Source: an uncultured Lachnospiraceae bacterium (GTDB lineage Bacteria > Bacillota > Clostridia > Lachnospirales > Lachnospiraceae). Taken from it: a stretch of DNA of 64,000 nt. Below, piece by piece: positions 5,286 through 64,000 of this stretch. The notes under the pieces were generated by a model, which worked only from the letters and a program-made list of their open reading frames with translations, did no database searches and was not told the DNA's origin. The stretch covers positions 12,112 to 76,111 of the forward strand of contig CAJUJY010000004.1 in assembly GCA_910586555.1 (NCBI GenBank). The letters run 5' to 3'. Each line of letters begins with the position of its first letter. Position 1 is the first letter of the stretch. A program made the translations under genes and the position numbers.

Positions 5286-5326
5286 ATCAAATCTCCTCTA
5301 TATACTCAGGGGTTGCATTCCATAAA

Positions 5327-5355: not shown

Positions 5356-5360
5356 GGCGT

Positions 5361-5400
5361 TAATATGAATTGATATGAATTGATATGAATTGATATGAAT
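5361..5400. repeat. Four tandem 10-bp direct repeats (TGATATGAAT; the first copy is TAATATGAAT)
   Basis: Read directly: taatatgaat tgatatgaat tgatatgaat tgatatgaat. Exact 10-bp periodicity, ending 5 nt from the -35 box of the promoter above. Confidence 0.95.
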
Positions 5401-5450
5401 TCAAAAACCGATATAATCACTTTATCCACTCAAACCTACACAAAATCATC

Positions 5451-5492
5451 TTGTCAACTCAACACTGCCCATTTTCAACCTGTCAACTCAAC
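5451..5492. repeat. Two direct copies of TGTCAACTCAAC spaced 29 bp apart
   Basis: tTGTCAACTCAAC at 5451-5463 and cTGTCAACTCAAC at 5480-5492, in the non-coding stretch between the cassette and the rlmD terminator. Confidence 0.8.
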
Positions 5493-5527
5493 CCTCGTTT
5501 TCTCCAAAGCAGCACCCCTGCAAAATG

Positions 5528-5567
5528 AAAAAATCCGAGAGCCGGAAGAACACCTCCAACTCTCGGA
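5528..5567 (-). terminator. Rho-independent terminator of rlmD
   Basis: On the minus strand: TCCGAGAG ... CTCTCGGA (8-bp stem, plus-strand 5534-5541 / 5560-5567) followed by TTTTTTCATTTT, about 30 nt after the rlmD stop. Confidence 0.75.
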
Positions 5568-5597
5568 AATCCTTTATTTTCAAGCCTTTTTCGGTAT

Positions 5598-7268
5598 TCA
5601 GTTCTGTACTTTTGACAGCAATACTACGCACTCGACGTGCCCTGTATGCGGAAACATATCCACACAACACACTCTTTCCACCTTATACCCATATTTCTGT
5701 AATTCTGCAATATCTCTTACAAGACTTGTTGGTTTACAGGAAATGTAAACCATTTCTGGTACTTTAATCTCCTCTCCTATTTTTCTCAATGCCTTAGGGT
5801 TTACGCCTTCTCTTGGCGGATCTAGTATTATAAAACCAGGTTTTTCGTTAATGTTTTCTAAGACTTTTAGTACATCTCCTGCTATAAATTTACAGTTAAA
5901 GAGCTTGTTTTCTGCTGCATTTTGTTTTGCTGCTTCTACTGCTTCTTCTACAATTTCAACTCCTGTCACTTTTTTAGCTATTGGTGCTATTATCTGTGCT
6001 ATTGTGCCAGTGCCGCTATATAAGTCAAAAACCACTTTATCCTTAAGGCATATTCTGGCTTTATTTTCAAAACCAGGTGTTTCCAGGCAGTTTCCAGATA
6101 CTTGCAGGGGTTTATTTTCTGGTTTATCTTCTGTATTCTTATTAGTACCTGGTTCTGTATTTTTTTTTGTATTTATGCCACTATTATATGTTTTATCCTT
6201 TTTTATATCTTTATTTATGTCTTTGATAATATTTTCTTCTATATGCAGTGGCTGTCCTGATATGTAATTTCTTACACATGTATATAGTACTTCTGCGCCT
6301 TTTGTATTTGTCTGGAAGAATGAAAAGACAGAAATCCGGAATTTTAAACCAAGTATTTCTTCCGCAATCCAGTCTTTTCCAAAGATAATATGTGTTTCAT
6401 CACTTTTTACTACATCTCCCAGTCCGTCATTTATAATATGCAAAAATCCTGTAATCCTGCCTTCGAGTTCCAGCTCCTTAAGTTTTATGCCAAGCTTGTC
6501 AAGACAAAGAAAAGCAAGCCCGTTCCCATCTGGCAGGTGTTTGCTAATTTCCTGCTCCAGTGCTGTTCCAGGTGTTTCTTGCACAGATGCTGTTACAAGT
6601 GCTACCAGTATTTCACCCGTTGATGATGAACGGCGTATAAGCAGGTGGCGCAATATGCCAGTATGTGTATTTTTATTGTAATGTGGTATATTTTTATTAA
6701 GAAAATATTCTTGTATGCAGTCTAAAATTTTTGAATAATCATTATTAACTATTTTACAGCCTGACGCATTTATTATATCATGTATGCTTCCCTTTTTATG
6801 AAGCCCAAGTGAAAGCGGGCCGCCTTTATATTCATCACCAAATGAAAATTCCATTTTATTTCTGTAAGCCCAGGCACAAGGGCTTTTTAATATCCCGTCA
6901 AATATATAAGAACCTTCTTCTAGCACGCTGCCAAGCAGTTTGAGTACATGGTTTTTCTTTAATTCAAGCTGTGCCTGGTATGGAAGTGTCTGTAAATTGC
7001 AACCGCCACATTCCCCAAAGTTTGCACATGCAGGCTTTTCTGTTTCAGATTGTGCCCTTTTAATAACTTCAAGCAGACGTCCGCTATATTTTCCGGAACG
7101 TGCCTTTTTAACAATATATTTTACTGTCTGTCCAGGCAGCACACCCTTTACCTCAACATAGTATTTATTTCTAATGCCATTTTTATCTGTTTCTTCTGTT
7201 AAAATTATTGCCTTATCTGGAAAACTTGTTTCTATTGCAGTCCCCTCATATATTTGTCCCTTTTTCAT
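5598..7268 (-). CDS. rlmD: 23S rRNA (uracil-5-)-methyltransferase, RumA/RlmD (TrmA) family
   Basis: It has a TRAM-like N-terminus, the Fe-S cysteine cluster CANFGECGGCNLQ, SAM motif DLYSGTGT and catalytic ISCKP. The start was moved from the track start (7331) to MKKGQIYEG at 7268. An N/K-rich insert of ~60-70 aa precedes the SAM motif. Confidence 0.85.
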   Translation of the reverse strand: MKKGQIYEGTAIETSFPDKAIILTEETDKNGIRNKYYVEVKGVLPGQTVKYIVKKARSGKYSGRLLEVIKRAQSETEKPACANFGECGGCNLQTLPYQAQLELKKNHVLKLLGSVLEEGSYIFDGILKSPCAWAYRNKMEFSFGDEYKGGPLSLGLHKKGSIHDIINASGCKIVNNDYSKILDCIQEYFLNKNIPHYNKNTHTGILRHLLIRRSSSTGEILVALVTASVQETPGTALEQEISKHLPDGNGLAFLCLDKLGIKLKELELEGRITGFLHIINDGLGDVVKSDETHIIFGKDWIAEEILGLKFRISVFSFFQTNTKGAEVLYTCVRNYISGQPLHIEENIIKDINKDIKKDKTYNSGINTKKNTEPGTNKNTEDKPENKPLQVSGNCLETPGFENKARICLKDKVVFDLYSGTGTIAQIIAPIAKKVTGVEIVEEAVEAAKQNAAENKLFNCKFIAGDVLKVLENINEKPGFIILDPPREGVNPKALRKIGEEIKVPEMVYISCKPTSLVRDIAELQKYGYKVERVCCVDMFPHTGHVECVVLLSKVQN

Positions 7269-7402
7269 AAACTTTACCAGGCACAAAACCCCGTTTCCTT
7301 TATATAGCAGTTTAAGGGTAAAAAGTGCCATATTCCTTTCCTAATTAACAAACTTTATACCATGGTTTAAATTGTCAAATATATATCCACAGTCCACAAA
7401 AC

Positions 7403-7432
7403 AACCCCACCGCTTTTAAAGGCTTAAGAAGC
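7403..7432 (-). repeat. Deleted fragment (copy F) of the multi-hairpin intergenic repeat family
   Basis: The reverse complement GCTTCTTAAGC..GCGGTGGGGTTGTTTTGTGG matches modules CGCTTCTTAAGCGGTGGG and GGTTGTTTTG of copies A-D. Confidence 0.6.
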
Positions 7433-7448
7433 ATATATTTAAGTATCT

Positions 7449-7540
7449 GGTTTAATTAATTGTTACAACATTACCAAGTACTTTAAATTTGTAAGCAAGT
7501 TTAGTATATGGCCAATTAATTATTACAACATTTCAAATTT
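7449..7540. repeat. Two degenerate duplicates of the last ~50 nt of pheA, lying downstream of the gene
   Basis: 7449-7500 (ggtttaattaattgttacaacattaccaagtactttaaatttgtaagcaagt) is ~88% identical to 7548-7599, which is the genuine pheA 3' end plus stop. 7510-7540 is a shorter third copy. Confidence 0.85.
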
Positions 7541-7550
7541 AATATTTGGT

Positions 7551-8696
7551 TTAATTAATTGTTACAATATTGCCAAGTACTTTAAATTTGCTTGCAAACT
7601 CATTTATGCATGCCAGTGCATTTCCCACTTCTGGCTGGTTTAAGTTACCTTCTATATCCACAAAAAACCTGTATTCCCAATTTCTGTTTTCTATTGGCCT
7701 TGATTCAATTTTAGTCAGGTTTAAACCATTGTAATAAAAATTGGAAAGCATGTTGTAAAGTGAGCCTGCCTGGTGTTTTATTTCAAATGAAAGGCTTATT
7801 TTATTGGCATCTGGCAAAAATATTTTCTGGTTGGAGATTATTATAAAACGTGTATAATTCATGCTTTCATGGTTTATCTGTTCTTTTATTATATCCAGCC
7901 CGAAAATGCCTGCTGCACGTGTGCTTGCTATTGCTGCCTGTGAGGGATCTGCATCTTCGGAAACTTTTTTAGCTGCGGCTGATGTGCTGGTATATGTTTT
8001 TGTTAAAATTCCAGGATAGTTCTCAAAAAACTTTGAACACTGCATAATCCCCTGCTGGTGGGAATATACTGTTTTAATATCTTCAAGTTTTGCACCTTTA
8101 AGTCCCATAAGTGCCTGTTCAACCTTTACAACATGTTCTGCAACTATTGTTATATCATAATTAAGAAGCAGGTCATAAATATCTGTAATTCCCCCTGTTG
8201 ATGTATTTTCAATCGGAAGGACACCAAACTTTGCTTCACCATTAGCAACGGTTTCCATTACTTCTTTAAATGTATTTTTATTTATTGCTGTTATGTTTTT
8301 GCCAAATACTTCTTCCATTGCCTGCTCTGTGTATGCGCCATGTTCCCCAAAACACACAACCCTTGTGTCAGCATCCACATCAAATGATTCTGCCTGTTTA
8401 AAAACCTGCCTGAAACTGTCACTCGTCCCAAGTACCTGGTACTGGTATTTGCGGCTTATTGACATAATCTGCCTGAAAAGGTCTTCTATGCCTGTTTTAT
8501 TAAATTCACTGTCTGCAAGTTCCCTTAGCACTTTTAACTTTTCTTCTTCGCGTACAGGATCAAATACTTTTTTACCTGTGCTTCTTTTATATGCTGCAAC
8601 ATCTGTTGAAACTTTCATCCTCTCCTCAAATAGTTCTGCAATTTTTTTGTCTATTTTATCAATTTTTTCTCTGCTTTCTTTTAAATCAATAACCAT
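7551..8696 (-). CDS. pheA: Bifunctional chorismate mutase / prephenate dehydratase
   Basis: It has a chorismate mutase N-terminus (MVIDLKESREKIDKIDKKIAELFEERM), a prephenate dehydratase core and an ACT domain with TKIESRPI. The start was moved to M36 of the track ORF, which removes the overlap with the upstream gene. Confidence 0.9.
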   Translation of the reverse strand: MVIDLKESREKIDKIDKKIAELFEERMKVSTDVAAYKRSTGKKVFDPVREEEKLKVLRELADSEFNKTGIEDLFRQIMSISRKYQYQVLGTSDSFRQVFKQAESFDVDADTRVVCFGEHGAYTEQAMEEVFGKNITAINKNTFKEVMETVANGEAKFGVLPIENTSTGGITDIYDLLLNYDITIVAEHVVKVEQALMGLKGAKLEDIKTVYSHQQGIMQCSKFFENYPGILTKTYTSTSAAAKKVSEDADPSQAAIASTRAAGIFGLDIIKEQINHESMNYTRFIIISNQKIFLPDANKISLSFEIKHQAGSLYNMLSNFYYNGLNLTKIESRPIENRNWEYRFFVDIEGNLNQPEVGNALACINEFASKFKVLGNIVTIN

Positions 8697-8751
8697 TTTA
8701 CCACCATTTCCTGTTTTTATCTGATTTTTATTTAAACTTATTAGCCAGTTA

Positions 8752-9642
8752 TCACCTGTACAGTTTTCCATAAAAATACTGTTCCTGGAAGGAAATATCA
8801 CCTAATATTTTTTCATCAGGAATATCATTTCCATCAAGTGATACAATCCATTTATCCTCCGTATCATTAAAACGGTGGAATACTGCTATTACTTTACCCT
8901 GGAAACTGTCTAAAGGCTTGTCCTGTCCAAATATATAAGCATCCTGTCCTTCACCATCCGCCCTGGATATACCTTCTATATATCCATAATTTAACCTCTT
9001 GACTGGGTAAATTATATCTTTATGTTTCGGAGGGCCTGAAAAAACGGGCCTGTCAATTTTACCCTGCACCATCTTGCCAATAATACCGCTATAATCTGGT
9101 TTATATGTACTTTCTGCAAATAATTCATTAAATGCATAAAAAAAGTAATCCAATGTGCCTACAAATTTCCCCTTATCATATAACTTTTTAATTTCTTCCT
9201 TAGATGTAAAATGGCAGGTTTCTACTTCGGCAGTAGTTGCATTTTTAAGTGACTGTATTCCATCAAATGATGTGCCATTGTATTCAAACAGCCATACATC
9301 CATTATATCATTATACTTTATGCCATTAATTTCTGTACGTATTTTACTAAAAAGAAGTTTTCCATCTTCTTTGCACAGGTCAAGGCCAACTTCTTCTTTA
9401 ACCTCCCTTATTGCACCTTCAAGGCTGTTTTCACCCTTTATAACAGAACCGCCTGTTGTTTCCCACATTAAAGGGTGTGCCGGGCGGTCTGCTGCCCTTT
9501 TTGATATAAGGTATTCACCTTTATTATTTCTTATCCATACATGGACTACCAGATGGTAAAACCCATCTGGTATTTTTTCACCACGTATATGTTCCCTCCC
9601 TGTTTTTTCCCTGTACTTTGTATACAAATCCCACTTTTCCAT
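8752..9642 (-). CDS. NUDIX hydrolase fused to an inorganic-pyrophosphatase-like C-terminal domain
   Basis: NUDIX box GGSVIKGENSLEGAIREVKEEVGL. The C-terminal NYGYIEG...DGEGQDAYIFG resembles a family I PPase core. ATG at 9642 is preceded by GGAAGGTG. Confidence 0.75.
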   Translation of the reverse strand: MEKWDLYTKYREKTGREHIRGEKIPDGFYHLVVHVWIRNNKGEYLISKRAADRPAHPLMWETTGGSVIKGENSLEGAIREVKEEVGLDLCKEDGKLLFSKIRTEINGIKYNDIMDVWLFEYNGTSFDGIQSLKNATTAEVETCHFTSKEEIKKLYDKGKFVGTLDYFFYAFNELFAESTYKPDYSGIIGKMVQGKIDRPVFSGPPKHKDIIYPVKRLNYGYIEGISRADGEGQDAYIFGQDKPLDSFQGKVIAVFHRFNDTEDKWIVSLDGNDIPDEKILGDISFQEQYFYGKLYR

Positions 9643-9711
9643 CCTGTCACCTTCCTGCAAAAACCAAATGTCATTAAGTAATGTATATTGCCTGGCAGAA
9701 TTTTAATTTTT

Positions 9712-11091
9712 TTATGCATCTTTAAGAAATGCCATATAACATTTTTTTGTTTCATAAATATCTGCTTTGCTTGTAACTTCCCAAGGTGCATGCATATTTA
9801 GCACTGCCACACCACAGTCAATTACTTCCATTCCATAGAGTGAAAGTATATATGCAATAGTACCGCCGCCGCCAATATCTACTTTGCCAAGTTCTGCCAT
9901 CTGGTAATTTACATTATTATTGTCCATAATATTCCTTAAAACAGCAAGGTACTCAGCATTTGCATCGTTAGAACCTGATTTTCCGCGGCTTCCTGTAAAT
10001 TTACTAAATACTACTCCCTTTCCGCAATATGATGAATTTTTCTTTTCAAATGCATCTGCAAAAAGAGGGTCATATGCAGCGTTTACATCAGAAGAAAGCA
10101 TCCTGCTGTTTTTAAGGCAGCGTTTTAATTTTAATTCTGAATAATTCCCTTCAAGGTTTATAAGTTCTGCAACTGTATTTTCAAAGAAATGTGACTGCAT
10201 TCCGGTTGCACCAACACTTCCTATCTCTTCTTTATCTACAAGCAGGCAGCAGGAGGTCTTGTCCACATTTTCCATTTCAAGCATTGCAGCAAGAGAAGTA
10301 TAAGCACATACCCTGTCGTCCTGGCCATAGGAAATTACCATGCTTTTGTCAAACCCAAGTTCACGTGCCTTCCCTGCTGGCACAATCTCAAGTTCAGCAG
10401 ACATAAAATCTTCTTCTTCAATGCCATAGGAGTCCTTAAGGATTTTAATTACATTTTCCTTTACATTTTCTTTTTCCTCACTATCAAGTGGCATGCTTCC
10501 AATAAGCAGGTCAAGTTTTTCACCTTCTATAACCTTTGCTGCTTTCTTCTCCATCTGTTCCCCGGCAAGGTGTATAAGAAGGTCTGTAATACAAAATACC
10601 GGATCTTCTTCATTTTCACCTATGCAGATATTAATTTTACTTCCATCTTTTTTAACTACTACACCATGTATTGCAAGCGGTATAGTTACCCACTGGTATT
10701 TTTTAATCCCGCCATAATAATGTGTGTCAAAATATGCAAGACCGCCATCTTCATATAAAGGATTCTGTTTTATATCTATACGCGGTGAATCAATATGTGC
10801 ACCAAGAATATTTAACCCTTCTTCCAGCGGCTTTTTACCTATATTAAATAAAATTACTGATTTGCACATACATGCAGCATATATTTTATCACCAGGTTTT
10901 AATTCCCTGCCATTTTCCACTGCTTCTTCAATAGAAATATATCCTTTTTCTTTTGCAAGTTCTATAGTCCTTTTAGTGCACTCCCTTTCTGTCTTACAGC
11001 TTGATAAAAAGTCTATATAACCTGTACAAAGCATATCAATTTCTTTTAAATCTGTACTGCTATAATCTTTCCATGCATTTTTTCTTTCCAT
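9712..11091 (-). CDS. M18-family aminopeptidase
   Basis: GAHIDSPRIDIK, DDRVC and EEIGSVGATG are metalloaminopeptidase motifs. The start was placed at MERKNAW; GGAGG lies 12 nt upstream. Confidence 0.8.
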   Translation of the reverse strand: MERKNAWKDYSSTDLKEIDMLCTGYIDFLSSCKTERECTKRTIELAKEKGYISIEEAVENGRELKPGDKIYAACMCKSVILFNIGKKPLEEGLNILGAHIDSPRIDIKQNPLYEDGGLAYFDTHYYGGIKKYQWVTIPLAIHGVVVKKDGSKINICIGENEEDPVFCITDLLIHLAGEQMEKKAAKVIEGEKLDLLIGSMPLDSEEKENVKENVIKILKDSYGIEEEDFMSAELEIVPAGKARELGFDKSMVISYGQDDRVCAYTSLAAMLEMENVDKTSCCLLVDKEEIGSVGATGMQSHFFENTVAELINLEGNYSELKLKRCLKNSRMLSSDVNAAYDPLFADAFEKKNSSYCGKGVVFSKFTGSRGKSGSNDANAEYLAVLRNIMDNNNVNYQMAELGKVDIGGGGTIAYILSLYGMEVIDCGVAVLNMHAPWEVTSKADIYETKKCYMAFLKDA

Positions 11092-11173
11092 AATATACAT
11101 TATCCTCCATTTCATAAAACAATTTATTCCAATTATACACCTGGCAGGGTATAATGTCTAATGTTAAATGAGG

Positions 11174-12100
11174 TTAAATTTTTATAAAATAAAATATAAC
11201 AGCCGCAAGCATAGCAGCTATAACAGCCTGCCTTAGTTTGGCAAATATATATTTCCTGGTCTGGATTCTGGTTCCTATAAGTGCACTTGATGTCTGTGCC
11301 ACACTTGACATGCCACCAAATGCACAAAATGCACTGGCTAGTATGCATTTATAATATAAAGGCATATCTGATTTTGCAAGTATTTCACCACCTGTTGTTA
11401 TTTCAAGTATTCCTGCCCCCAAAACCTTAAAAATCCCACTTGCTGTTACAAGATCCTGTAAAATCCTTGTAAAAATTGAAAATAATATTATATAACCCCC
11501 TACTTTAACAAGCGTAACCGCAGAACTTAATATGCTTTCATCCAATGCTTCCATCATTGAATAATTTTTTTTAATATTAGCGCTTTCTTTAAAACCTGTT
11601 TCCCCTTCTGTATTACAAAATCCTGCTAGTGCATTGATAAATGCAGACAGGTATATTATTAAAAGCATAATTGCAGGCTTTGAAAGCCCAAGGCATTTTA
11701 TGCCTATATATTCAAGCATAAACATAGGGCTTGCATTATTACAAAAACTTATTATATACTGTGCTTCATTAAGTGAAAATGCCCCTGTTTTATACAGGTC
11801 AGCCGTTGTCTTTGCACCAAGGGGATAACCTGAAAGCATGCCTATTACAGCAGGGTAACATCCGTTTTTTGAAAGCCTGAAGATTTTATGGAACACAGGG
11901 TAAAATATATTACTTATAAAACTTGTTACATTTAGTTTTACTAACATCGATGAAATAATCATAAATGGGCACAATGATGGTATTATAACATTAAACCATA
12001 AAAGAAGCCCGTCTTGTGCTCCCCGGCTTGCAATATCAGGAAATATTACAAAAAGCAGCACAAATAAAGCCAGAAATAAAATAAAAAATTTTCTTCTCAT
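11174..12100 (-). CDS. ylbJ: Sporulation integral membrane protein YlbJ-like (nucleoside-recognition-type membrane protein)
   Basis: 308 aa and polytopic. The N-terminus ...ASRGAQDGLLLWFNVIIPSLCPFMI is typical of YlbJ. Confidence 0.65.
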   Translation of the reverse strand: MRRKFFILFLALFVLLFVIFPDIASRGAQDGLLLWFNVIIPSLCPFMIISSMLVKLNVTSFISNIFYPVFHKIFRLSKNGCYPAVIGMLSGYPLGAKTTADLYKTGAFSLNEAQYIISFCNNASPMFMLEYIGIKCLGLSKPAIMLLIIYLSAFINALAGFCNTEGETGFKESANIKKNYSMMEALDESILSSAVTLVKVGGYIILFSIFTRILQDLVTASGIFKVLGAGILEITTGGEILAKSDMPLYYKCILASAFCAFGGMSSVAQTSSALIGTRIQTRKYIFAKLRQAVIAAMLAAVIFYFIKI

Positions 12101-12202
12101 AAAAACCCTTATAACACAGCTTTTATTCTATGCTATGACAGACAATGCCACATTATTCTTAACCAGCCCTGCCTGCCATGGGTTTTAATTTTATTTGTTT
12201 TA

Positions 12203-13147
12203 TTACCAGAATTTTTTCTTTTTAAAATAATAAAGGCTTGCTGCTATTACAAGTATGCTTGCTGTTATTATAACAGGATATGAATATTTATACCCTATTT
12301 CTGGCATATGTTCAAAATTCATGCCATACCAGCCAGCAATTAATGTAAGTGGAAGGAATGTAGCAGTAACAACTGCCAGCACTTTCATAATATCATTCTG
12401 TTTTATTTCAATTTCTGACTGGTATACCTCTTGTACCTGCATTACATATTCCCTTAATAATTGTGTTTCATCTGCAAGCTGTTCTGTTTTGTTTTTATAC
12501 TGGTTAAAGGCATTTGCACCATTACTGCTAAAAAAGCCATTTTCATTGGCAGATAGTTCTCCTGCTACAACTTTAAGCTGTATATAATAATGATAAAAAC
12601 GTGATATAAGTTTCTTTAAATAAAGCATACGGCAGCTAAATTTCTCTATCCTTCCACAAAGCACGTCTTCTTCAATTACTGCAATATCCCTTTCAATTTT
12701 TTGAAGAAATAAAAGATCTTCATTAATAAATAATAATAAAAAATAATACAAAAAACGTCCAGGGCACATATTTTCCTGTAATGAACCTGCTGCCAGCTTT
12801 TTAACAGCTTCCTCTGCTTCACCGTCATCATCAAGTATAATTATTCTGCTGCCAGTTATATACATTGCAAATGTTATGTCCCTGCTGCCTTTTATTTTTG
12901 ATGGTACTTTAAACGTTCCAAATATATAATCCATATGGGATTCAATCTTACATGAGTGTATCTGTTCAGCTTTGTGCCATATACCTGCCTTTTCACGCAT
13001 CAGCGGGCTTTCATTCCATTCTGAAAGTTTTATGGCACATACACCATTATTACAATTCCAGAAATCCTTTTCCTCTACCTTTTTAATCCCGCTGCCAGTA
13101 ATAATATAGTACACAACTGTACTCCTTTCAAAGTAAATCTTATTCAA
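12203..13147 (-). CDS. corA: CorA-family magnesium/cobalt transporter
   Basis: Two C-terminal TM helices carry the WYGMNF (GMN) motif. Confidence 0.85.
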   Translation of the reverse strand: MNKIYFERSTVVYYIITGSGIKKVEEKDFWNCNNGVCAIKLSEWNESPLMREKAGIWHKAEQIHSCKIESHMDYIFGTFKVPSKIKGSRDITFAMYITGSRIIILDDDGEAEEAVKKLAAGSLQENMCPGRFLYYFLLLFINEDLLFLQKIERDIAVIEEDVLCGRIEKFSCRMLYLKKLISRFYHYYIQLKVVAGELSANENGFFSSNGANAFNQYKNKTEQLADETQLLREYVMQVQEVYQSEIEIKQNDIMKVLAVVTATFLPLTLIAGWYGMNFEHMPEIGYKYSYPVIITASILVIAASLYYFKKKKFW

Positions 13148-13162
13148 TTAATACTTATAATT

Positions 13163-14305
13163 TCAGTTTTTTATTATATTAAAACGGCTTTCGAGAAGTA
13201 CCCAGTTTGCAAGGAAAAGCCTCATTATTTGCCAGTAGCCCATTCCACGCAGCCCAAATTCCTCAAGCAGTGAAAATTTTGCATCCATGCTTCTTACATC
13301 CTCAAACCATACTTCATGCCTTATGCCCTCTGATGTATAATTAAAATAAGGTGTCTGTGCAGTTTCATCAAACTGTATTTGTGCCCCGTTAGCAGCAGCA
13401 ATCTGTACTGCCTGGGTATTTCCAATAGTCGTTGCTGCTGTTTCACCCTGTACATATGGCAGTGGCCAGTCATACCCGTAATTTGGTATGCCAAGATCTA
13501 TTTTATTACGTGGTATCTGTGTAACTGCATATTCAACAACCTGCCTTACTTTATTAATTGGAGCAACTGCCATGGGTTCACTGTATTTATATCCCCATTC
13601 ATATGTCATAAGAAGGCAGCTATTAGCAGCAGCCCCAAGTCCTCCATAATCTTTCCCTTCATATAAAAGCCCCTTTTGCCCAGATGATGTTTTTGGTGCA
13701 AGTGCCACTGAAACCGGGTAACCATAAGCGTTAAGTTCCCTTGTAAGCCTTGCCACAAATGAAGTAAATAAATCCCTGTCTTCTGCCTTTATATATTCAA
13801 AATCAACATCTGCCCCCATAAAGTTCTTTGCCTGTAATGTTTCCAGCATTTCATTTATAAGGTTTTCCTGTGCGCTGTCACTGCTTACAAGTGCTGAAAT
13901 AAGGTTATTATTAAACCTTCCCTGGCTGTCCATTGGCGTAAGGGTAAGTACTGGGGACGTGCCAAACTCCAGTGCTGCATTTATCATTCCTGTATCATCT
14001 GTGGAAGGTGGTATTAAATTGCCTTGTTCTGAAAAACCATAAGAGAAAACTGATAAATCTGTAAGATAAGGAAGCGTTGTCTGTAATACTTTTGAATTAA
14101 TATATGGGTAAGCGTACCCGTTTACATTGACTTCCCGTTTATACTGCTGCAAAATATCCTGTACTGGTATAAGCAGTGCCTGCCCTATTACAAGCGGGTA
14201 AGGATATGAAATCTGGTTTATAAATGCTATTTCAGATGCAGGGACATTAAATTTATCTGAAATCCTGTCAATAGTATCACCTTGTTTTACTACATATATT
14301 TCCAA
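13163..14305 (-). CDS. LysM-domain glycoside hydrolase family 18 (YaaH/YdhD-like spore peptidoglycan hydrolase)
   Basis: N-terminal LysM (VKQGDTIDRISDKFNV) and GH18 catalytic block GADVDFEYI. TTG start with GGAGG 6 nt upstream. Confidence 0.8.
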   Translation of the reverse strand: MEIYVVKQGDTIDRISDKFNVPASEIAFINQISYPYPLVIGQALLIPVQDILQQYKREVNVNGYAYPYINSKVLQTTLPYLTDLSVFSYGFSEQGNLIPPSTDDTGMINAALEFGTSPVLTLTPMDSQGRFNNNLISALVSSDSAQENLINEMLETLQAKNFMGADVDFEYIKAEDRDLFTSFVARLTRELNAYGYPVSVALAPKTSSGQKGLLYEGKDYGGLGAAANSCLLMTYEWGYKYSEPMAVAPINKVRQVVEYAVTQIPRNKIDLGIPNYGYDWPLPYVQGETAATTIGNTQAVQIAAANGAQIQFDETAQTPYFNYTSEGIRHEVWFEDVRSMDAKFSLLEEFGLRGMGYWQIMRLFLANWVLLESRFNIIKN

Positions 14306-20339: not shown

Positions 20340-20417
20340 AACCAGATAATACTTTTAAATGCCAGTGTATGTCCTATAAAAAACCAGCATTTTTCGTGCT
20401 TAGGTTTTTACAGGACT

Positions 20418-21100
20418 GGTTCATAAATTATAATGTAAATAAAAGATAATTTATAGTTATCTGTGGTTTGTTTTAAAGGAGGTATATAGAAATTTTTATG
20501 CCCTGGCAGTTCCAAAGTGTCCCATGTACAGCCCGCTTGCGCTTGGACTTACACGCAGCGGTGCATAAAGCCCTTATGCTTCAAAGAAAAAACTTCTTTG
20601 AAGCATTTAAGACAGGGCTTAAACACCGGCGGCTGCGTACATCTGTCCATTGGGAGCACATTTGGAACTTGCCAGGTAATATACGTTTTGGCAGTTTATA
20701 AAAATATTTTTTGTACATCTCCTTAACTTATGGGAATTAAAAGTTTTCTTGCTTGTATTTTAATTTCTTGGTAAAATTTTATATTTCTCTTAAAGATGGA
20801 AAACCAGAGTATACAACATTCTCTGGTTATTACCTGTAACTTGTATTTTTCCATAGTGTTTAAACCATGTGGAAAATTTTTATGTCCTGTGTAAAAGGCA
20901 TTTTTGCACCGTCAGTGCTTAAACCTGGTATTTTCAGGTTTTATGCACTGTTACGTGTGCAATCATAGCGGAAGCGGGCCTTTTACCGGGACATAAAAAT
21001 TTCCACATGTACAACCTCCTTAAAACAAACCACAGATAACTATAAATTATCTCCTGTTTATATATAATTAAAAATTTATGAAATGGACTTGGGATTTTTA
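20418..21100 (+). repeat. Composite ~0.68-kb repeat element E1, with long terminal inverted repeats and no credible ORF
   Basis: TIR core AGATAATTTATAGTTATCTGTGGTTTGTTTTAA(A)GGAGGT at 20444-20483 recurs inverted at 21012-51. Homology to E2 extends ~25-50 bp beyond both cores. Contents: a covarying hairpin (20501-20676), a 60-bp module S (20731-20790) and a second long hairpin (20871-21004). Boundaries are approximate. Confidence 0.8.
20501..20676 (+). ncRNA. Candidate structured RNA (or ssDNA hairpin), ~175 nt, unassigned family
   Basis: A long imperfect hairpin closed by CCTGGCA.GTTCCAAA / TTTGGAACTTGCCAGG, with a 13-bp apical stem ATGCTTCAAAGAA / TTCTTTGAAGCAT. Two helices differ from the E2 copy by paired, compensatory changes. 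No transcript evidence is available. Confidence 0.45.
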
Positions 21101-38630: not shown

Positions 38631-40124
38631 CTACACAATTTTTATTTTCTTTATTGTGTGGATAAACTCCATATTGCTTTTAGTCCTGCGGAAAGTATCA
38701 ATAATATGCTCTACTGCTTCATCTGCCCTGCTGCCGTTAAAGGCTTTCCTTATAAGGAAATTTGCTTCTATCTCGTCCTGTGTAAGTAAAAGGTCATCAC
38801 GCCTTGTACTGGACTTTGGCAGGTCAATAGCAGGAAATACACGTTTTTCAGAAAGCTTTCTGTCAAGGACTATCTCCATATTGCCAGTGCCCTTAAACTC
38901 TTCAAATACAACATCATCCATTTTGCTGCCAGTATCAACAAGTGCTGTTGCAAGTATTGTAAGGCTTCCTCCTTCACGCATATTCCTTGCTGCACCGAAA
39001 AACCTTTTTGGCATATGGAGCGCAGCAGGGTCAAGCCCTCCTGACAATGTACGCCCGCTAGGCTGTACAGTAAGGTTGTATGCCCTTGCAAGCCTTGTAA
39101 TGCTGTCAAGCAGTATCATAACATCTTCACCATGTTCAACAAGGCGTTTTGCCCTTTCAATAACCATTTCTGACACCCTTTTATGGTTTTCAGGAAGTTC
39201 ATCAAATGTTGAATATATTACATCTACATTATTTCCCATAATAGACTCTTTTATATCTGTAACTTCCTCTGGACGTTCATCAATAAGAAGCACAATAAGG
39301 TGCATCTTTGGATGGTTTGTTTTAACAGCCTTTGCAACCTGCTTTAATAGTGTGGTTTTGCCAGTCTTTGGCTGTGATACAATCATGCCGCGCTGTCCTT
39401 TGCCAATAGGTGAAATTAAATCCATCATACGCATGGAAACAGGCCCTCCCTGGATTTCAAGCCTTATCCTTTCATTAGGGAATATTGGTGTAAGCTGTTC
39501 AAACTTAACCCTGCGTATAATCCTGTCAGGATTAACACCATTTACTGTACGGATATATAAAAGTGCACCAAATTTTTCATTCTGGTTACGTACCCTTACA
39601 TTGCCCTTAAGTATATCCCCTGTACGGAGATGGTACTTTCTTATAAGCGCTGGCGAAACATAGACATCTTCATCACCTGGAAGGTAATTATCACACCTTA
39701 TAAAGCCATACCCCTCCTGCATAACTTCAAGTATGCCTTCACGCACTTCACCACTGTCAAGCTGTTCCATATCACTTGGCTGTATGCCATTCTGGTCATT
39801 CCTGTTATTATTATTGCTATTACTGCTATTGTTATTATTGCTGCTGCCACTGTTTTTAGCTGTACCCCTGTTACGTTCAGCCCTTCTTGTCTTCTCCTCT
39901 TCATTCTCTGTCCTGTTGTCTTTAGGTGCTTTTTTTGCTGCCTTATTATTTCTGTCACTACTTCCAGGCTCTTCTGTAAGCGTGCCATTATTACTGCTAT
40001 TCTTTGCCATTTCAAGAATTTTTTCAAGAAGTTCCTGCTTTTTGTATGTAGTTACATTCTTTATGCCCAGTTTCTTCCCTTCAATACGCAATTCTACAAG
40101 TGACATTTTCCCAAAATCTGACAT
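38631..40124 (-). CDS. rho: Transcription termination factor Rho with an Asn-rich N-terminal insertion
   Basis: Rho N-terminal domain, RNA-binding CSD-like region, Walker A (PKTGKTTLL), and Q and R loops. An insert of ~70 aa includes NSGSSNNNNSSNSNNNNRNDQNG. Confidence 0.95.
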   Translation of the reverse strand: MSDFGKMSLVELRIEGKKLGIKNVTTYKKQELLEKILEMAKNSSNNGTLTEEPGSSDRNNKAAKKAPKDNRTENEEEKTRRAERNRGTAKNSGSSNNNNSSNSNNNNRNDQNGIQPSDMEQLDSGEVREGILEVMQEGYGFIRCDNYLPGDEDVYVSPALIRKYHLRTGDILKGNVRVRNQNEKFGALLYIRTVNGVNPDRIIRRVKFEQLTPIFPNERIRLEIQGGPVSMRMMDLISPIGKGQRGMIVSQPKTGKTTLLKQVAKAVKTNHPKMHLIVLLIDERPEEVTDIKESIMGNNVDVIYSTFDELPENHKRVSEMVIERAKRLVEHGEDVMILLDSITRLARAYNLTVQPSGRTLSGGLDPAALHMPKRFFGAARNMREGGSLTILATALVDTGSKMDDVVFEEFKGTGNMEIVLDRKLSEKRVFPAIDLPKSSTRRDDLLLTQDEIEANFLIRKAFNGSRADEAVEHIIDTFRRTKSNMEFIHTIKKIKIV

Positions 40125-40344
40125 AATTAACCTCTTTCTTTTATTAGTATATATTAACCAGCAGTACTGTTACTGTGGTTGTTACCGTTGCTTACGCAAT
40201 AATAGGAATTGTATAACTCTTGAAAATTCAATAGAATTAATAGAAATAATCTATAATATCCGGATGTTAAACGTGGTACTTTAAATTTCTGCTCTTATAA
40301 ATAATATACACAATAACTTCCATATTGTAAAGTAAATTCTTACA

Positions 40345-41010
40345 TCTGTTCCAGAAATTTATAATATAAATAATAGATAATTTATAGTTATCCAAGGTTT
40401 GTTGTATATATTGTAGTCTGTGTACATGCAGCAGTTTTATATATTTTCTGTAGCAGGCACGTTCCCACTACGATAGTGCCTTTTACAGAAAATATATAAA
40501 ACTGCTTGCATGTTACTATGTTTCATTGGGAATTAAAAGTTTTCCTGTTTGTATTTTAACTTTTTGACAAAATTTTATATTTGTCTGGAAGACTTTTATG
40601 TCCCATGTAAAAAGTACTTTTCACCGTTATTAAACACTATCACATGTGCAAGTGCAGTACAATGCCATTGAACCAGGGAAATCCACAGGAAATATTTTTA
40701 TAAACTGCCAAAACGTATATTACCTGGCAAAGGCCAGATGTAATCCTAAAAGGCAACTGTACGGGGCCGCCGGCGTTTAAACCTGGTTTTAAATGCTTCA
40801 AAGAAATTTTTTCTTTGAAGCATACAGGTTTTACGCGCCGTTGCGTGAACCCGTCCAAGCGGAAGCGGGTTGCCTGTAGGATTACTTTGGACTTGCCAGG
40901 GTATAACATTCTGGTCTATTATTTAAAATAAACCGTGGATAACTATAAATTATCTTTTGTTTGCGAACAATTAAAAATTTATGCAACAGACATGGATTCT
41001 ATTATTTTTT
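40345..41010 (-). repeat. Composite ~0.67-kb repeat element E2, same family as E1 with the hairpin on the opposite strand
   Basis: TIR cores AGATAATTTATAGTTATCCAAGGTTTGTT (40375-40403) and its inverted partner at 40927-40955. Contents: a 95-nt near-perfect palindrome (40425-40519), module S (40527-40586) and the covarying hairpin (40723-40901). Boundaries are approximate. Confidence 0.8.
40723..40901 (-). ncRNA. Second copy of the candidate ~175-nt structured RNA/hairpin
   Basis: It has the same architecture as 20501-20676. The apical 13-bp stem is identical (40793-40805 / 40811-40823). Helix GTAATCCTA/TAGGATTAC replaces E1's GTGTCCCA/TGGGAGCAC, and ACCTG/CAGGT replaces GCCC/GGGC. Confidence 0.45.
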
Positions 41011-43453: not shown

Positions 43454-43516
43454 CTTTCAAGGAAATAAAAGACCAGGCTTTTTGTTAATTTCCTGGCAGA
43501 AATGCCATAAAACATT

Positions 43517-43715
43517 AGCGCCAGACCCTTAACATGCATTTTTAGATATTACCTGGAAGCATTGTGATACAGCCCTGCCCTTTAAACCAGTGCAGGCAGT
43601 AAGGGTGACGAGGTAAAAGGTTATCGGAATTCCGGCGGATGCCTTTTTGTATTCTTTGCATGCAGAGGTATGGGCAGACACCTGGGTAACCAGGGAACAA
43701 ATCCTGTACCAGCAA
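43517..43715 (+). ncRNA. glmS ribozyme: glmS glucosamine-6-phosphate-activated ribozyme
   Basis: It has the cleavage-site/core sequence AGCGCCAGA (43517-), then GACGAGG and GGTTATCGGAATTCCGGCGGATGCC. These match the conserved glmS ribozyme core, and it sits directly upstream of glmS. The 3' boundary is approximate. Confidence 0.85.
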
Positions 43716-43782
43716 AGGGATATTTTAATATAATATACCATATTGTAAATAACAGGCAGAAAGTGCAGAAAAGAGGTAAATT

Positions 43783-45603
43783 ATGTGCGGAATTATTGGA
43801 TTTACAGGTAATATCAATGCAAAAGAGGTATTACTACAAGGACTTAAAGCCCTTGAATACCGTGGTTATGACAGTGCCGGCATTTCTTATTTTACAGAAA
43901 GCGGCATTAAAACAATTAAAGCAGTTGGCAAGGTTTCAGGCCTTGCAGAAAAAGTTGCACTATCAGATGGTGACATACCAAAGTGCGGAATAGGCCATAC
44001 ACGGTGGGCAACACATGGCGGTGTTTCTGAAATTAACTGCCACCCTCACCATTTTGGCAAGGTAACACTTATCCATAATGGCATTATTGAAAATTACAAA
44101 GAATTACAAGAAGAACTTGCCCTTGATGGTAAAGAACCTGTTTCACAGACAGATTCAGAGATTGCTGCTATGGTGATTGATTCATGTTATAAATCAAATC
44201 CCGTAAGGGCTATTAAAAAAGCTGTTAAAAAACTACACGGTGCATATGCATTCTGTATAATGTTTGAAGACCACCCTGGAAGCATATATGCAATAAGGAA
44301 TGGCAGCCCGCTTGTTGCCACTGCTACTAAAGAAGGGGCTGTTATTGCATCAGACATGGTTGCACTTATAAAATATTCTAAAGATTATTTTGTACTGCCT
44401 GAACACCATATAGCCCACCTTACAGCAGGAAGCATTAATATTACAGACCTTGACCAGAATGAAATTGAACCGGATATGCTCCATGTAAACTGGGATATGG
44501 CAGCAGCAAGAAAAGGCGGTTATGAGTATTTTATGCTCAAAGAAATACATGAACAGCCAGAAGCACTCCATAATACAATATCACCAAGAATAAAAGACGG
44601 GCTTCCTGACTTTTCGGCAGATAATATACCTGACAGCCTGTTTGAAAATACAGACAGGATAATAATAACAGCCTGTGGTACTGCAATGCATGCAGGGCTT
44701 ATTGGCAAAAACATGATTGAAAAACTTTCAAGGGTTCCTGTTACTGTGGATATTGCTTCGGAGTTCCGTTACCAGAACCCTGTAATTGATAGCAATACAC
44801 TTGTTATAACTATATCCCAGTCAGGCGAAACCGCAGACACGCTTGCTGCATTAAGGCTTGCCAAAGAATGTGGTGCTAAAACATTGTCAATAGTTAATGT
44901 TAAGGGTTCTTCCATTGCACGTGAAAGTGATTATGTGCTTTATACACATGCAGGCCCTGAAATAGCTGTTGCAAGCACTAAAGCTTATACTGTACAGCTT
45001 GCCACAATCTATCTTTTTGCATTCAGGTTTGCACTTTTAAAAGACATTGTACCAGAAGCAGAAATAAGAAATTTAACAAGCATACTTCTGAAGATGCCTG
45101 GCTTTGTGGAAAATATGCTTTCATGTGACAAGGCTATAGAAAAAATAAGCAATAAACTTAAAAAGACTAAAAACCTTTTCTTTATCGGGCGCGGGCTTGA
45201 TTATGCACTTTCATGTGAAGGTTCAATTAAATTAAAAGAAGTAAGTTATATACATTCAGAGGCATATGCAGCAGGTGAACTTAAACATGGCACTATATCA
45301 CTTATTACAGATAATGTGCCAGTAATTGCACTTGCTACCCAGGACAATGTTTTTACTAAAATGATTTCCAATATACGGGAGGTACGTTCCCGTGGTGCAA
45401 AGGTTATAATGATTACAGGCGCTGATACAGGGGTTGATGCATCACTTTGTGACCACCTTATCACACTCCCGCCAGTAAATGATTTATTTGCGCCATTCGG
45501 GGCAGCAATAGTATTACAGTATATTGCATACTATACAGCTGTTGCAAAGGGGCTTAATGTAGACCAGCCAAGAAACCTTGCTAAATCAGTAACTGTAGAG
45601 TAA
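43783..45603 (+). CDS. glmS: Glutamine--fructose-6-phosphate aminotransferase
   Basis: MCGIIGF N-terminal nucleophile, two SIS domains and a C-terminal ...KSVTVE. Confidence 0.97.
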   Translation: MCGIIGFTGNINAKEVLLQGLKALEYRGYDSAGISYFTESGIKTIKAVGKVSGLAEKVALSDGDIPKCGIGHTRWATHGGVSEINCHPHHFGKVTLIHNGIIENYKELQEELALDGKEPVSQTDSEIAAMVIDSCYKSNPVRAIKKAVKKLHGAYAFCIMFEDHPGSIYAIRNGSPLVATATKEGAVIASDMVALIKYSKDYFVLPEHHIAHLTAGSINITDLDQNEIEPDMLHVNWDMAAARKGGYEYFMLKEIHEQPEALHNTISPRIKDGLPDFSADNIPDSLFENTDRIIITACGTAMHAGLIGKNMIEKLSRVPVTVDIASEFRYQNPVIDSNTLVITISQSGETADTLAALRLAKECGAKTLSIVNVKGSSIARESDYVLYTHAGPEIAVASTKAYTVQLATIYLFAFRFALLKDIVPEAEIRNLTSILLKMPGFVENMLSCDKAIEKISNKLKKTKNLFFIGRGLDYALSCEGSIKLKEVSYIHSEAYAAGELKHGTISLITDNVPVIALATQDNVFTKMISNIREVRSRGAKVIMITGADTGVDASLCDHLITLPPVNDLFAPFGAAIVLQYIAYYTAVAKGLNVDQPRNLAKSVTVE

Positions 45604-63439: not shown

Positions 63440-63940
63440 ATGTTTTATGAAATGAGAAGAAAACGCCAGTTATTAACATTAGATGAATGTAATAATATTT
63501 TAAAAAATGGCACTTCTGGTGTACTTGCCTTGTCTGGCGGTGACAGCTTTCCATATGCTGTACCATTAAGTTATGTATACAGTGGCAGTTCTATTTACTT
63601 CCACAGCGCATTAACAGGACATAAAACCAGCTTAATACAGAAATTTCCTAAAGCTTCTTTTTGTGTTATAGGAAGTGATAATGTAATGCCTCTGGAATAT
63701 ACTACATATTTTAGCAGTGTAATTGTATTTGGGGAAATACATATAGTAGAAGATAAAGATAAAAAAATGGCAGCAATAAAAGAACTTGCTGTTAAATATG
63801 CACCTTTAGAAGAAGAAAATAAAATGCAGTCTGTTATTAATAATGAATGGGAACGCTTTTGTATAATTGAGCTTGCAATAAAGCATATAAGCGGTAAAAA
63901 AGCAAAAGAACTTATTAACCCTGGCAACATAAAAAAATAA
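63440..63940 (+). CDS. Pyridoxamine 5'-phosphate oxidase-family (FMN-binding split-barrel) protein
   Basis: 166 aa. MRRKRQLLTLDECNNILKNGTSGVLAL...YAVPLSYVY...IYFHSA is typical of NimA/PNPOx-like proteins. AAGGAG RBS. Confidence 0.75.
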   Translation: MFYEMRRKRQLLTLDECNNILKNGTSGVLALSGGDSFPYAVPLSYVYSGSSIYFHSALTGHKTSLIQKFPKASFCVIGSDNVMPLEYTTYFSSVIVFGEIHIVEDKDKKMAAIKELAVKYAPLEEENKMQSVINNEWERFCIIELAIKHISGKKAKELINPGNIKK

Positions 63941-64000
63941 GCACGAGACGGGATTCGAACCCGCGGCCCCCGCCTTGGCAAGGCGGTACTCCACCACTGA
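63940..64000 (-). tRNA. tRNA-Gly (anticodon GCC), 3' two-thirds; the 5' end lies beyond the window
   Basis: The reverse complement is TCAGTGGTGGAGTACCGCCTTGCCAAGGCGGGGGCCGCGGGTTCGAATCCCGTCTCGTGC-T. It shows a D-loop, anticodon stem-loop CCGCC-UUGCCAA-GGCGG, a T-arm with GGTTCGAATCC, and an acceptor 3' strand. No CCA is encoded. Confidence 0.9.

What the first reader, a model, noticed from the sequence alone, without database searches (positions are those of the whole stretch)
40345..41010. 0.65-kb ORF-less composite element in two copies, with long terminal inverted repeats and an internal module whose orientation differs between copies
E1 (~20418-21100) and E2 (~40345-41010) share inverted-repeat termini: core AGATAATTTATAGTTATC(TGTGG/CAAGG/CACGG)TTTGTT plus flanking CATAAATT...AATTAAAAATTTATG homology.

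They share three things: the covarying hairpin, a 35-nt invariant segment, and a 60-bp module S (TGGGAATTAAAAGTTTTC.TG.TTGTATTTTAA...AAAATTTTATATTT.TCT, at 20731-20790 and 40527-40586).

In E1 the hairpin and S read in the same direction. In E2, S is on the plus strand and the hairpin is on the minus strand, so S is inverted relative to the hairpin and TIR frame.

Each element also carries a second long hairpin of unrelated sequence: E1 20871-21004, and E2 40425-40519 (28 bp plus a GGCAC/GTGCC clamp). In E1, short inverted copies of GAAATTTTTATG(T)CC occur at 20488-20503, 20873-20889 and 20987-21004, which could be recombination sites.

The pattern suggests either a non-autonomous mobile element (MITE-like) with nested rearrangements, or a site-specific invertible segment. 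E1 sits just upstream of the blaI-blaR1 promoter. E2 lies between the rho upstream region and a hypothetical gene.
Basis: seen in the sequence. Interest (0 to 1): 0.65.

Follow-up and report, generated by a model that had tools for sequence, protein, structure and literature searches.

The report
High-copy MITE of mouse-gut Lachnospiraceae
The two 0.65-kb ORF-less elements are real copies of a previously undescribed, high-copy, non-autonomous transposable element (a large MITE) of rodent-gut Lachnospiraceae, built of two long hairpin "arms"; this is an ordinary kind of selfish repeat, not a regulated DNA switch.

Summary
E1 (20411-21091) and E2 (about 40342-40994) are homologous and ORF-less, with 45-70-nt terminal inverted repeats around an invariant core, AGATAATTTATAGTTATC. 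A central module, S, has opposite orientation in the two copies.

They are not a two-copy curiosity. Six more copies lie at unrelated intergenic sites in related MAGs and metagenome contigs. In mouse-gut DNA metagenomes, element parts reach 30-250 times the depth of the unique flanks, with many different flanking sequences.

One copy has a perfect 10-bp target-site duplication, and E1 has a 9/10 one. Homology to sister species stops exactly at E2's left end.

Each end carries a long hairpin arm: 97% of cells paired, 11 pairs with changes on both sides.

S plus a half-arm is inverted in E1 relative to four other copies. In those copies it is flanked by inverted half-arms, so recombination between arms explains the inversion. 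Independent assemblies show one fixed orientation per locus.

The window holds no transposase or invertase. A co-resident ISAs1-family IS shares only the CACGG terminus, so the mobilising transposase is unidentified.

Verdict: a new member of a known kind (MITE). Interest is low to moderate.

The parts
40342..40994 (.). E2, a complete MITE copy (about 653 bp) between the rho upstream region and a 179-aa hypothetical gene
   Evidence: TIRs. Termini were set by comparison with 6 other copies. Sister-species homology ends at 40341/40342. Related-strain contigs break at 40341.
40342..40410 (+). E2 left TIR, with the palindromic core AGATAATTTATAGTTATC at 40375-40392
40425..40519 (.). E2 minimal hairpin arm: a shortened homologue of the arm module, keeping the outer stem and the loop motif GGCACGTTCCCACTACGAT
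   Evidence: 31-nt arms at 94%. Homologous to the second arm of L054 (z=26.6) and of E1 (z=4.5). This is the most abundant piece in metagenomes.
40527..40592 (+). Module S in E2
   Evidence: 86% identical to 20731-20796 on the same strand.
40586..40627 (+). Orphan half-arm next to S (GGAAGACTTTTATGTCCCATGTAAAAAGTAC...). It is homologous to the 5' half of E1's second hairpin, and in E2-type copies it is inverted relative to the neighbouring arm's outer stem.
   Evidence: 81% over 43 nt to 20870-20912; block comparison.
40690..40730 (-). 41-nt stretch identical in E1 and E2
40723..40901 (-). E2 full-length arm: a long imperfect hairpin of about 180 nt with a tip hairpin at 40793-40823
   Evidence: Consensus fold and pair counts. 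The tip is replaced in other strains at this same locus.
40920..40994 (-). E2 right TIR, core at 40938-40955
20411..21091 (.). E1, the second MITE copy (681 bp) between pdxT and the blaI-blaR1 promoter
   Evidence: A 9/10 direct repeat G(G/A)TTTTTACA lies within 2 nt of both ends. Identical in two independent assemblies.
20502..20676 (+). E1 full-length arm hairpin, tip hairpin at 20576-20606
20731..20796 (+). Module S in E1. Relative to the full arm it is inverted compared with E2 and the L054 and L059 copies.
20866..21009 (-). E1 shortened arm: a medium hairpin with the conserved loop motif CCCGCTTCCGCT
   Evidence: I5, I7; z=9.1 against the E1 full arm.

Best explanation
E1 and E2 are two copies of a multi-copy, non-autonomous cut-or-copy DNA transposon: a large MITE of 650-715 bp found in rodent-gut Lachnospiraceae.

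Each end consists of three parts:
- a TIR of about 65-70 nt with the terminus 5'-CA(C/T)G.C.GTTTCATAAATT;
- a subterminal palindrome, AGATAA-N7-TTATC;
- an inward-lying long hairpin arm.

A central module S lies between the arms.

Inferred: a DDE transposase supplied in trans binds the TIRs and inserts the element into AT-rich intergenic DNA, making a duplication of about 10 bp.

Shown: the copies evolve as a mosaic.
- Arms are shortened from the tip while staying hairpins.
- Patches are exchanged between copies.
- The S segment, flanked by inverted half-arms, has flipped in the E1 lineage.

The hairpins' pairing is maintained through many double substitutions. Whether selection on RNA or DNA structure does this, or templated correction within the palindrome, is not resolved.
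For: Copies at unrelated loci
- L054 9912-10625 lies between fic and a 145-aa gene.
- L059 4402-5097 lies upstream of rplJ.
- L060 is beside murB and a tRNA.
- L061, L062 and L063 hold further copies.

Copy number
- In four DNA metagenomes the unique flanks have depth 5-55, while element parts reach 200-13,800.
- Eight to nine different sequences follow the right terminus in each run.
- Two copies in 64 kb fits a genome-wide count of several tens.

Insertion signatures
- L054 has a perfect abutting 10-bp duplication, ATATGTTTAT (0 of 3000 random controls).
- E1 has a 9/10 repeat within 2 nt of its ends (p about 0.004).
- The rho upstream region of sister species (Rho 86-89% identical) is homologous up to 40341 and unrelated beyond.

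Non-autonomy
- The elements carry no conserved ORF.
- None of the 38 ORFs of 180 aa or more in the window is a transposase or recombinase.

Arm structure
- 67 pairs, with 97% of cells paired.
- 11 pairs changed on both sides, against 1-4 when the partners are slid.

Mosaic evolution
- At the E2 locus, other strains differ only by replacement of the 32-nt tip plus a compensatory stem change.
- Contigs with other tips (TT, CTTTC, CTTTCAA) are common.
- S plus a half-arm is inverted in E1 relative to E2, L054 and L059.
Against: - No autonomous partner with matching TIRs was found.
- E2 and the L059 copy have no significant target-site duplication.
- At 650-715 bp with TIRs of about 65 nt, the element is larger than the usual prokaryotic MITE, which is under 500 bp with TIRs of 4-30 bp (PMC10969869).
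- No clean empty site was recovered. The sister species has a different gene on the far side of the break.
- Depths come from Logan contigs summed over all organisms in a sample, so the per-genome copy number is an estimate.
Confidence: 0.8

Rival explanations
1. This is a site-specific invertible DNA switch (inverton or shufflon). The TIRs or the short inverted repeats are recombinase sites, and the S segment flips to control neighbouring genes such as blaI-blaR1.
For: - Long inverted repeats flank the element.
- S is inverted between E1 and the other copies and is flanked by inverted half-arms.
- Some metagenome contigs join 20730 to 20912 on opposite strands.
- Assemblies break at the repeats.
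Against: - There are tens to hundreds of copies with different flanks, which fits a mobile repeat and not a locus-specific switch.
- E1 and E2 are collinear and in one orientation in all independent assemblies.
- No recombinase is present in the 64-kb window.
- The opposite-strand contigs are explained by paralogous copies such as L063, which has that junction.
- No conserved outward promoter was found.
Confidence: 0.05
2. The repeats are primarily genes or cis-elements for a structured RNA. The long hairpin arm would be the functional product, for example an sRNA, an mRNA stabiliser or terminator, or a ligand- or protein-binding RNA. The TIR-like ends would be its promoter and operator.
For: - Pairing is strongly maintained, with 11 double-changed pairs.
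- An unpaired motif, CCCGCTT(C/G)CGCT, and a 41-nt block are conserved.
- A promoter-like TTTACA-16-TATAAT reads into E1.
- Pieces are present in RNA-labelled rat-gut runs.
Against: - There is no Rfam match, even at E<=10.
- Both strands fold equally well: -83.8 and -86.3 kcal/mol.
- Wobble-compatible mismatches show no significant strand bias, at 7 vs 3 cells.
- The promoter is not conserved at the other three ends.
- The depth profile in the RNA-labelled runs mirrors the DNA copy-number profile, and a true metatranscriptome shows almost nothing.
- Orientation relative to neighbouring genes varies.
Confidence: 0.1
3. The repeats are hairpin-dependent elements moved by a single-strand (HUH) transposase, of the REP/REPIN or IS200/IS605-derived PATE type.
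For: The architecture is dominated by long conserved hairpins. The hairpin piece at 40410-40511 is more abundant than the TIRs.
Against: - Long TIRs of 45-70 nt and a 10-bp target duplication are hallmarks of DDE transposition, not of HUH elements, which make no TSD and have no TIRs (established knowledge).
- No tnpA, RAYT or tnpB gene was found in the window or beside any copy.
Confidence: 0.03
4. The two elements are ancient, immobile duplicated DNA.
For: E1 and E2 are only 65% identical, and both are fixed in all sampled strains of the species.
Against: - Copy number is high and flanks are diverse.
- Additional copies share 80-84% identity at other loci.
- One copy has a perfect TSD.
- The site is absent from sister species.
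Confidence: 0.02

Closest known systems
Prokaryotic MITEs in general (for example Coxiella QMITE1/2, Geobacter Chunjie, Neisseria Correia elements; review PMC10969869)
   Same: - No transposase.
- TIRs, with target duplications in younger copies that decay in older ones.
- AT-rich intergenic targets and tens of copies.
- Size and sequence variants, including truncated copies.
- Strongly folding sequence.
   Different: - About 650-715 bp, against a typical size under 500 bp.
- TIR similarity extends about 65-70 nt, against 4-30 nt.
- Each end carries its own hairpin arm of about 100-180 nt, whose pairing is kept by many double substitutions.
- The parent IS is not identified.
Bacillus cereus-group interspersed repeats bcr1-bcr18 (recalled from memory, not checked here)
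   Same: Firmicute intergenic repeat families. Some are MITE-like with a TSD, and some have conserved secondary structure supported by compensatory changes.
   Different: Different sequence and host, and mostly 100-400 bp. No sequence relationship was tested.
ISAs1-family insertion sequences (the IS in L061 and L064; NCBIfam NF033564)
   Same: - The IS co-occurs with the MITE in assembly GCA_964018445.1 and lies 9 nt from a MITE copy in L061.
- Its 22-nt TIR begins with CACGG, as several MITE termini do.
- The family is said to make 8-10-bp duplications and to end in CAGGG (my recollection of ISfinder).
   Different: - TIR similarity beyond the first 5 nt is not above chance (z below 2).
- The IS lacks the AGATAA-N7-TTATC palindrome in that form.
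- Its own duplication could not be read from the two contigs.
Invertible promoters (invertons) of gut bacteria
   Same: Inverted repeats flank a few hundred bp of intergenic DNA next to a resistance-related operon (blaI-blaR1).
   Different: The element is multi-copy and dispersed. No recombinase is present, orientation is fixed in assemblies, and no conserved promoter lies inside.

Membership tests
MITE (non-autonomous DDE-type transposon) | No transposase or other conserved ORF inside | tested here: met
   ORFs of at most 89 aa have no Pfam hit. Frames and start codons are not conserved between copies, and 1-nt indels are tolerated.
MITE (non-autonomous DDE-type transposon) | Terminal inverted repeats | tested here: met
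   Arms of 43-44 nt at 86-91%. The 18-nt core is invariant at all 4 ends. The terminus consensus is shared by 8 copies.
MITE (non-autonomous DDE-type transposon) | Target-site duplication flanking the ends | tested here: inconclusive
   L054 has a perfect 10/10 duplication and E1 has 9/10 within 2 nt (p about 0.004). E2 and L059 are not significant. Only 4 complete copies were available.
MITE (non-autonomous DDE-type transposon) | Many dispersed copies with different flanks | tested here: met
   Eight loci have distinct neighbours. Depth is 30-250 times the flanks, with multiple flank consensus sequences.
MITE (non-autonomous DDE-type transposon) | Small size (typical, not strictly defining: under 500 bp; PMC10969869) | tested here: inconclusive
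   Full copies are 652-714 bp, above the typical range but far below an IS with a transposase. Shorter derivatives exist: L063 and contigs that skip 574 nt between the cores.
MITE (non-autonomous DDE-type transposon) | A cognate autonomous element with matching TIRs | tested here: inconclusive
   None is present in the window, plasmids, phages or viral contigs.
ISAs1-derived MITE | TIRs similar to those of an ISAs1-family IS | tested here: not met
   For the one co-resident ISAs1 IS, only CACGG is shared, and alignment z-scores range from -1.6 to 1.7 against shuffles. Other ISAs1 members were not examined.
Invertible DNA switch (inverton) | Both orientations present at one locus within a population | tested here: inconclusive
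   All spanning assemblies have one orientation. Only contigs were available, not raw reads.
Invertible DNA switch (inverton) | A cognate invertase or recombinase | tested here: not met
   No recombinase domain occurs in any ORF of 180 aa or more in the window. A recombinase acting in trans from elsewhere is not excluded.
Described structured RNA family (Rfam 15) | Covariance-model match | tested here: not met
   There is no hit on the elements at gathering score and none better than E=0.018 with a permissive search. All hits are far below their thresholds.
REP/REPIN or IS200/IS605-derived PATE | Hairpin ends without TIRs or TSD, plus an associated HUH transposase | tested here: not met
   Long TIRs and a 10-bp TSD are present. 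No such gene lies near any copy.

The most novel reading that the evidence does not exclude
The element may be more than junk. One possibility is that the invariant palindrome AGATAA-N7-TTATC is the binding site of a host or element-encoded dimeric regulator. Another is that the hairpin arms, kept by compensatory change, make a functional RNA.

Either way, the MITE would disperse a regulatory module next to dozens of genes, here rho and blaI-blaR1. The same palindrome lies about 60-75 nt upstream of two convergent operons in a 4.6-kb inverted-repeat-bounded cassette of Lachnospiraceae bacterium 10-1 (L019). That is compatible with an operator role.
Probability: 0.12. Interest if true: 0.6.

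Novelty: new member of a known kind. Interest (0 to 1): 0.3.

Why it matters
At several tens of copies, this family may make up 1-2% of the genome of an uncultured mouse-gut Lachnospiraceae lineage. That figure is an inference from metagenome depth.

Practical consequences:
- It fragments MAG assemblies. Contigs end in its TIRs or hairpins.
- It seeds spurious small 'proteins' in gene catalogues.
- It marks sites of rearrangement between sister species.
- It sits directly upstream of regulatory genes.

Recognising the family helps annotation, assembly and strain typing of murine gut Clostridia. It is also a natural system for studying how long palindromic arms persist and diversify in a bacterial genome. 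It does not reveal a new kind of mechanism.

Tried and rejected
1. Rfam, at gathering thresholds and with a permissive search, found nothing on the elements.
2. The 18-nt core scan of genome contigs returned 42 loci, mostly chance hits in unrelated phyla. Only L019, and perhaps L020, L002, L023, L024 and L027, share more than the core, and none holds the internal modules.
3. A degenerate arm-motif scan of metagenome contigs gave one chance hit in a coding region. The same motif scanned against viral contigs found nothing.
4. Searches of plasmids and phages (blastn) and two more viral scans found no homologue.
5. Promoter and terminator scans showed no enrichment over shuffles, and nothing was conserved at all four ends.
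6. The ISAs1 IS as partner: the termini share CACGG only, which is not significant. An IS1182-like gene in L064 has no matching end.
7. The empty-site search through Rho orthologues found that sister species have a different upstream neighbour (malic enzyme). This gave a boundary but no clean empty site.
8. Protein coding for the 67-90-aa ORFs was rejected, because frames and starts differ between copies.
The family-level assignment rests on the nearest named Rho homologues, at 67-79% identity and labelled Lachnospiraceae.
10. A full-text search for the TIR sequences found no paper.

Full report

Yes. The repeat finder reports a 44-nt (91%) inverted repeat at 20433-20476 and 21020-21063, and a 43-nt (86%) one at 40368-40410 and 40920-40962. 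The core AGATAATTTATAGTTATC occurs exactly four times in 64 kb, once at each of these ends in inverted pairs. About 0.29 matches are expected by chance.

E1 and the reverse complement of E2 align over their whole length at about 65% identity. They share a 41-nt identical block (20669-20709 and 40690-40730). The 66-nt module S (20731-20796 and 40527-40592) is 86% identical on the same strand, so relative to everything else it is inverted.

No ORF is conserved. The open frames over the arm differ between copies, E2 has ATA where E1 has ATG, and single-base indels are tolerated. None of these ORFs has a Pfam hit.

One sub-claim is wrong. The 'second hairpins of unrelated sequence' are homologous to each other and to the main arm. 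z-scores against shuffles are:
- 9.1 for the E1 arm against E1's second hairpin;
- 30 for the second hairpins of E1 and L054;
- 26.6 for the second hairpin of L054 against E2's 40425-40519 hairpin.

**2. Anatomy**

Every element is nearly symmetric. Each end has a TIR followed inward by a hairpin arm.

The full arm (20502-20676 in E1; 40723-40901, minus strand, in E2) is an imperfect hairpin of about 180 nt. It has a perfect 13-14-bp tip hairpin (ATGCTTCAAAGAA...) and a conserved internal-loop motif, CCCGCTT(C/G)CGCT.

The other end carries a shortened version. E1, L054 and L059 have a medium version, and E2 has a minimal one. Between the arms lie the 41-nt block, a variable stretch, an orphan half-arm and S.

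**3. It is a large repeat family**

Translating the spurious 89-aa ORF of E2 and searching the protein catalogue returned six 'proteins'. Their contigs carry further copies at unrelated intergenic sites:
- L054 9912-10625, between fic and a 145-aa gene;
- L059 4402-5097, upstream of rplJ;
- L060, beside murB and a tRNA;
- L061, L062 and L063.

All share the terminus 5'-CA(C/T)G.C.GTTTCATAAATT and the core.

Contigs of mouse-gut DNA metagenomes were laid on both loci. The unique flanks have depth 5-8 (55 in X36), while element parts reach 200-800 (up to 13,800 in X36). Hundreds of distinct variant contigs align, and 8-9 different sequences follow the right terminus in each run. Two copies in 64 kb agrees with several tens per genome. 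That number is an inference, because the depths sum over all organisms in a sample.

Assemblies of the same species regularly end inside the TIR or the hairpins.

**4. Insertion signatures**

- The L054 copy is flanked by a perfect, directly abutting 10-bp duplication, ATATGTTTAT. None of 3000 random position pairs reached this.
- E1 has G(G/A)TTTTTACA, 9/10, within 2 nt of its ends (p about 0.004).
- E2 and L059 show nothing significant. This is expected for old copies, since direct repeats decay with time (PMC10969869).

Sister species with Rho 86-89% identical keep a nearly identical rho leader up to window position 40341. Beyond that point they are unrelated, with malic enzyme as the neighbour. 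The homology break therefore coincides with E2's terminus. Because the far side differs too, this is a boundary and not a clean empty site.

A strain with 98% identical Rho has the TIR at the same place.

**5. Non-autonomy**

All 38 ORFs of 180 aa or more in the window are housekeeping, restriction-modification or sporulation genes. None is a transposase or recombinase.

**6. The arms**

RNAalifold on eight arms gives the same long hairpin on either strand, at -83.8 and -86.3 kcal/mol. Counting the 67 pairs gives:
- 97% of cells paired;
- 11 pairs changed on both sides, against 1-4 in the slid controls;
- no shuffle reaching the observed values.

Almost all double changes separate the E1/L063 subfamily from the others.

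Mismatches that would be G-U on the opposite strand (7 cells) do not significantly outnumber G-U on the given strand (3 cells). There is therefore no strand signal for an RNA. Two explanations remain open: selection on a DNA or RNA hairpin, and templated correction within a quasi-palindrome.

**7. Mosaic evolution and the S inversion**

At the E2 locus itself, other strains (L047, L048, L050, L051) are identical to the window over about 1 kb apart from one further substitution. The difference is that the 32-nt tip hairpin is replaced by a short loop, together with a compensatory change in the adjoining stem: CCTGG/CAGG becomes CTTGG/CCAAG. That is a conversion patch from a paralogue, not a simple deletion. 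Contigs with other tips (TT, CTTTC, CTTTCAA) are common.

Block comparison shows that S plus the adjacent half-arm is inverted in E1 relative to E2, L054 and L059. L060 and L061 also read as E2-type. In those E2-type copies, S is bracketed by inverted half-arm sequences (GTACCTTTTACA ... TGTAAAAGGCAC). Recombination between them gives E1's arrangement, in which the half-arm now forms the 5' side of E1's second hairpin. This step is inferred.

The opposite-strand contigs at 20730/20912 match the junction seen in the paralogue L063. They do not show flipping at E1. E1 is 99.9-100% identical and collinear in two independent assemblies, and E2 is collinear in three.

**8. Which transposase?**

This is unknown.

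In L061 an ISAs1-family IS lies 9 nt from a MITE copy. It matches NCBIfam NF033564 at E=9.5e-80 and has 22-nt TIRs, CACGGAAATCAATTTTCAAAAA. An identical transposase is in assembly GCA_964018445.1, which also holds the L054 copy. From my recollection of ISfinder, the ISAs1 family ends in CAGGG and makes 8-10-bp duplications, which would fit.

Beyond CACGG, however, the TIRs are not similar above chance. I treat this as a lead only.

**9. Comparison with known things**

The element meets the working definition of a prokaryotic MITE: no transposase, TIRs, direct repeats in young copies, AT-rich intergenic sites, many copies, size variants and stable folding (PMC10969869). It is larger than usual and has unusually long TIRs and two structured arms.

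It has no Rfam match and no plasmid, phage or viral homologue. No paper contains its TIR sequences. General searches on MITEs in Lachnospiraceae or Clostridia found no description of such a family.

**10. Verdict**

This is a real feature, correctly seen. The mobile-element reading is right and the invertible-switch reading is not supported. It is a new family of a known kind, of modest interest. Its main value is for annotation and assembly of murine gut Lachnospiraceae, and as an example of long palindromic arms maintained in a repeat family.

Noticed in passing
L019 2001-2060 and 6565-6624 (Lachnospiraceae bacterium 10-1, KE159822.1): A 4.6-kb cassette is bounded by a 52-nt inverted repeat that contains the same palindrome, AAAGATAATTTATAGTTATCT. 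Each repeat lies about 60-75 nt upstream of an inward-reading operon. One operon encodes a pentapeptide-repeat protein and a membrane protein. The other encodes a 779-aa ATP-grasp/radical-SAM-like protein (domains judged by eye only). An XRE/HipA-like gene pair lies next door. It could be a cargo-carrying relative of the MITE or a shared operator.
   Followed up: partly
window 40787-40828 vs L047 3277-3945 and L048: Strains of the same species differ at the E2 locus almost only in the hairpin tip. A 32-nt tip is replaced by a short loop, with a compensatory stem change (one further substitution also differs). This looks like gene conversion between MITE copies.
   Followed up: yes
L061 77-1257 and L064 1-1255: An ISAs1-family insertion sequence of about 1.18 kb has 22-nt TIRs, CACGGAAATCAATTTTCAAAAA. 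It is very abundant in gut metagenomes, with 2383 homologues at E<=1e-20. In L064 two IS ends abut with a 9-nt spacer (GGCTTAAAA), which suggests a tandem dimer, a circle junction or an assembly artefact.
   Followed up: partly
window 40124-40341 vs L095 and L096 3673-4001: The rho leader (about 215 nt) is almost identical between species whose Rho proteins are only 86-89% identical. This suggests a conserved cis-regulatory leader upstream of rho. Synteny breaks exactly at the MITE end.
   Followed up: partly
window 43506-43720 (+): A glmS ribozyme/riboswitch (66 bits, E=5.7e-13) lies upstream of the glmS gene at 43783-45603.
   Followed up: no
window 106-4596: A restriction-modification pair: an Alw26I-type endonuclease (106-1515, +) and a 1011-aa fusion methylase with Eco57I/TaqI_C and C-5 cytosine methylase domains (1561-4596, -).
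   Followed up: no
L059 4278-4400: A degenerate TIR-like end (CACATCAGTTTAATATAAATTTAATTG) and a core-like GATATAACTATATACTAATT lie about 125 nt upstream of the complete L059 copy. This may be the remnant of an older, mostly deleted copy at the same site.
   Followed up: no
L020 1-18 and 5675-5692; L002, L023, L024, L027 contig ends: Several MAG contigs from other Clostridia and Bacilli end at the same 18-nt core, followed by CTTTATT. This hints at related repeat families that share the palindrome. It could also be chance, since about 17 or more chance hits are expected in 596 Gb.
   Followed up: partly
window 63940-64000 (-): A tRNA gene is cut by the window end (43 bits).
   Followed up: no
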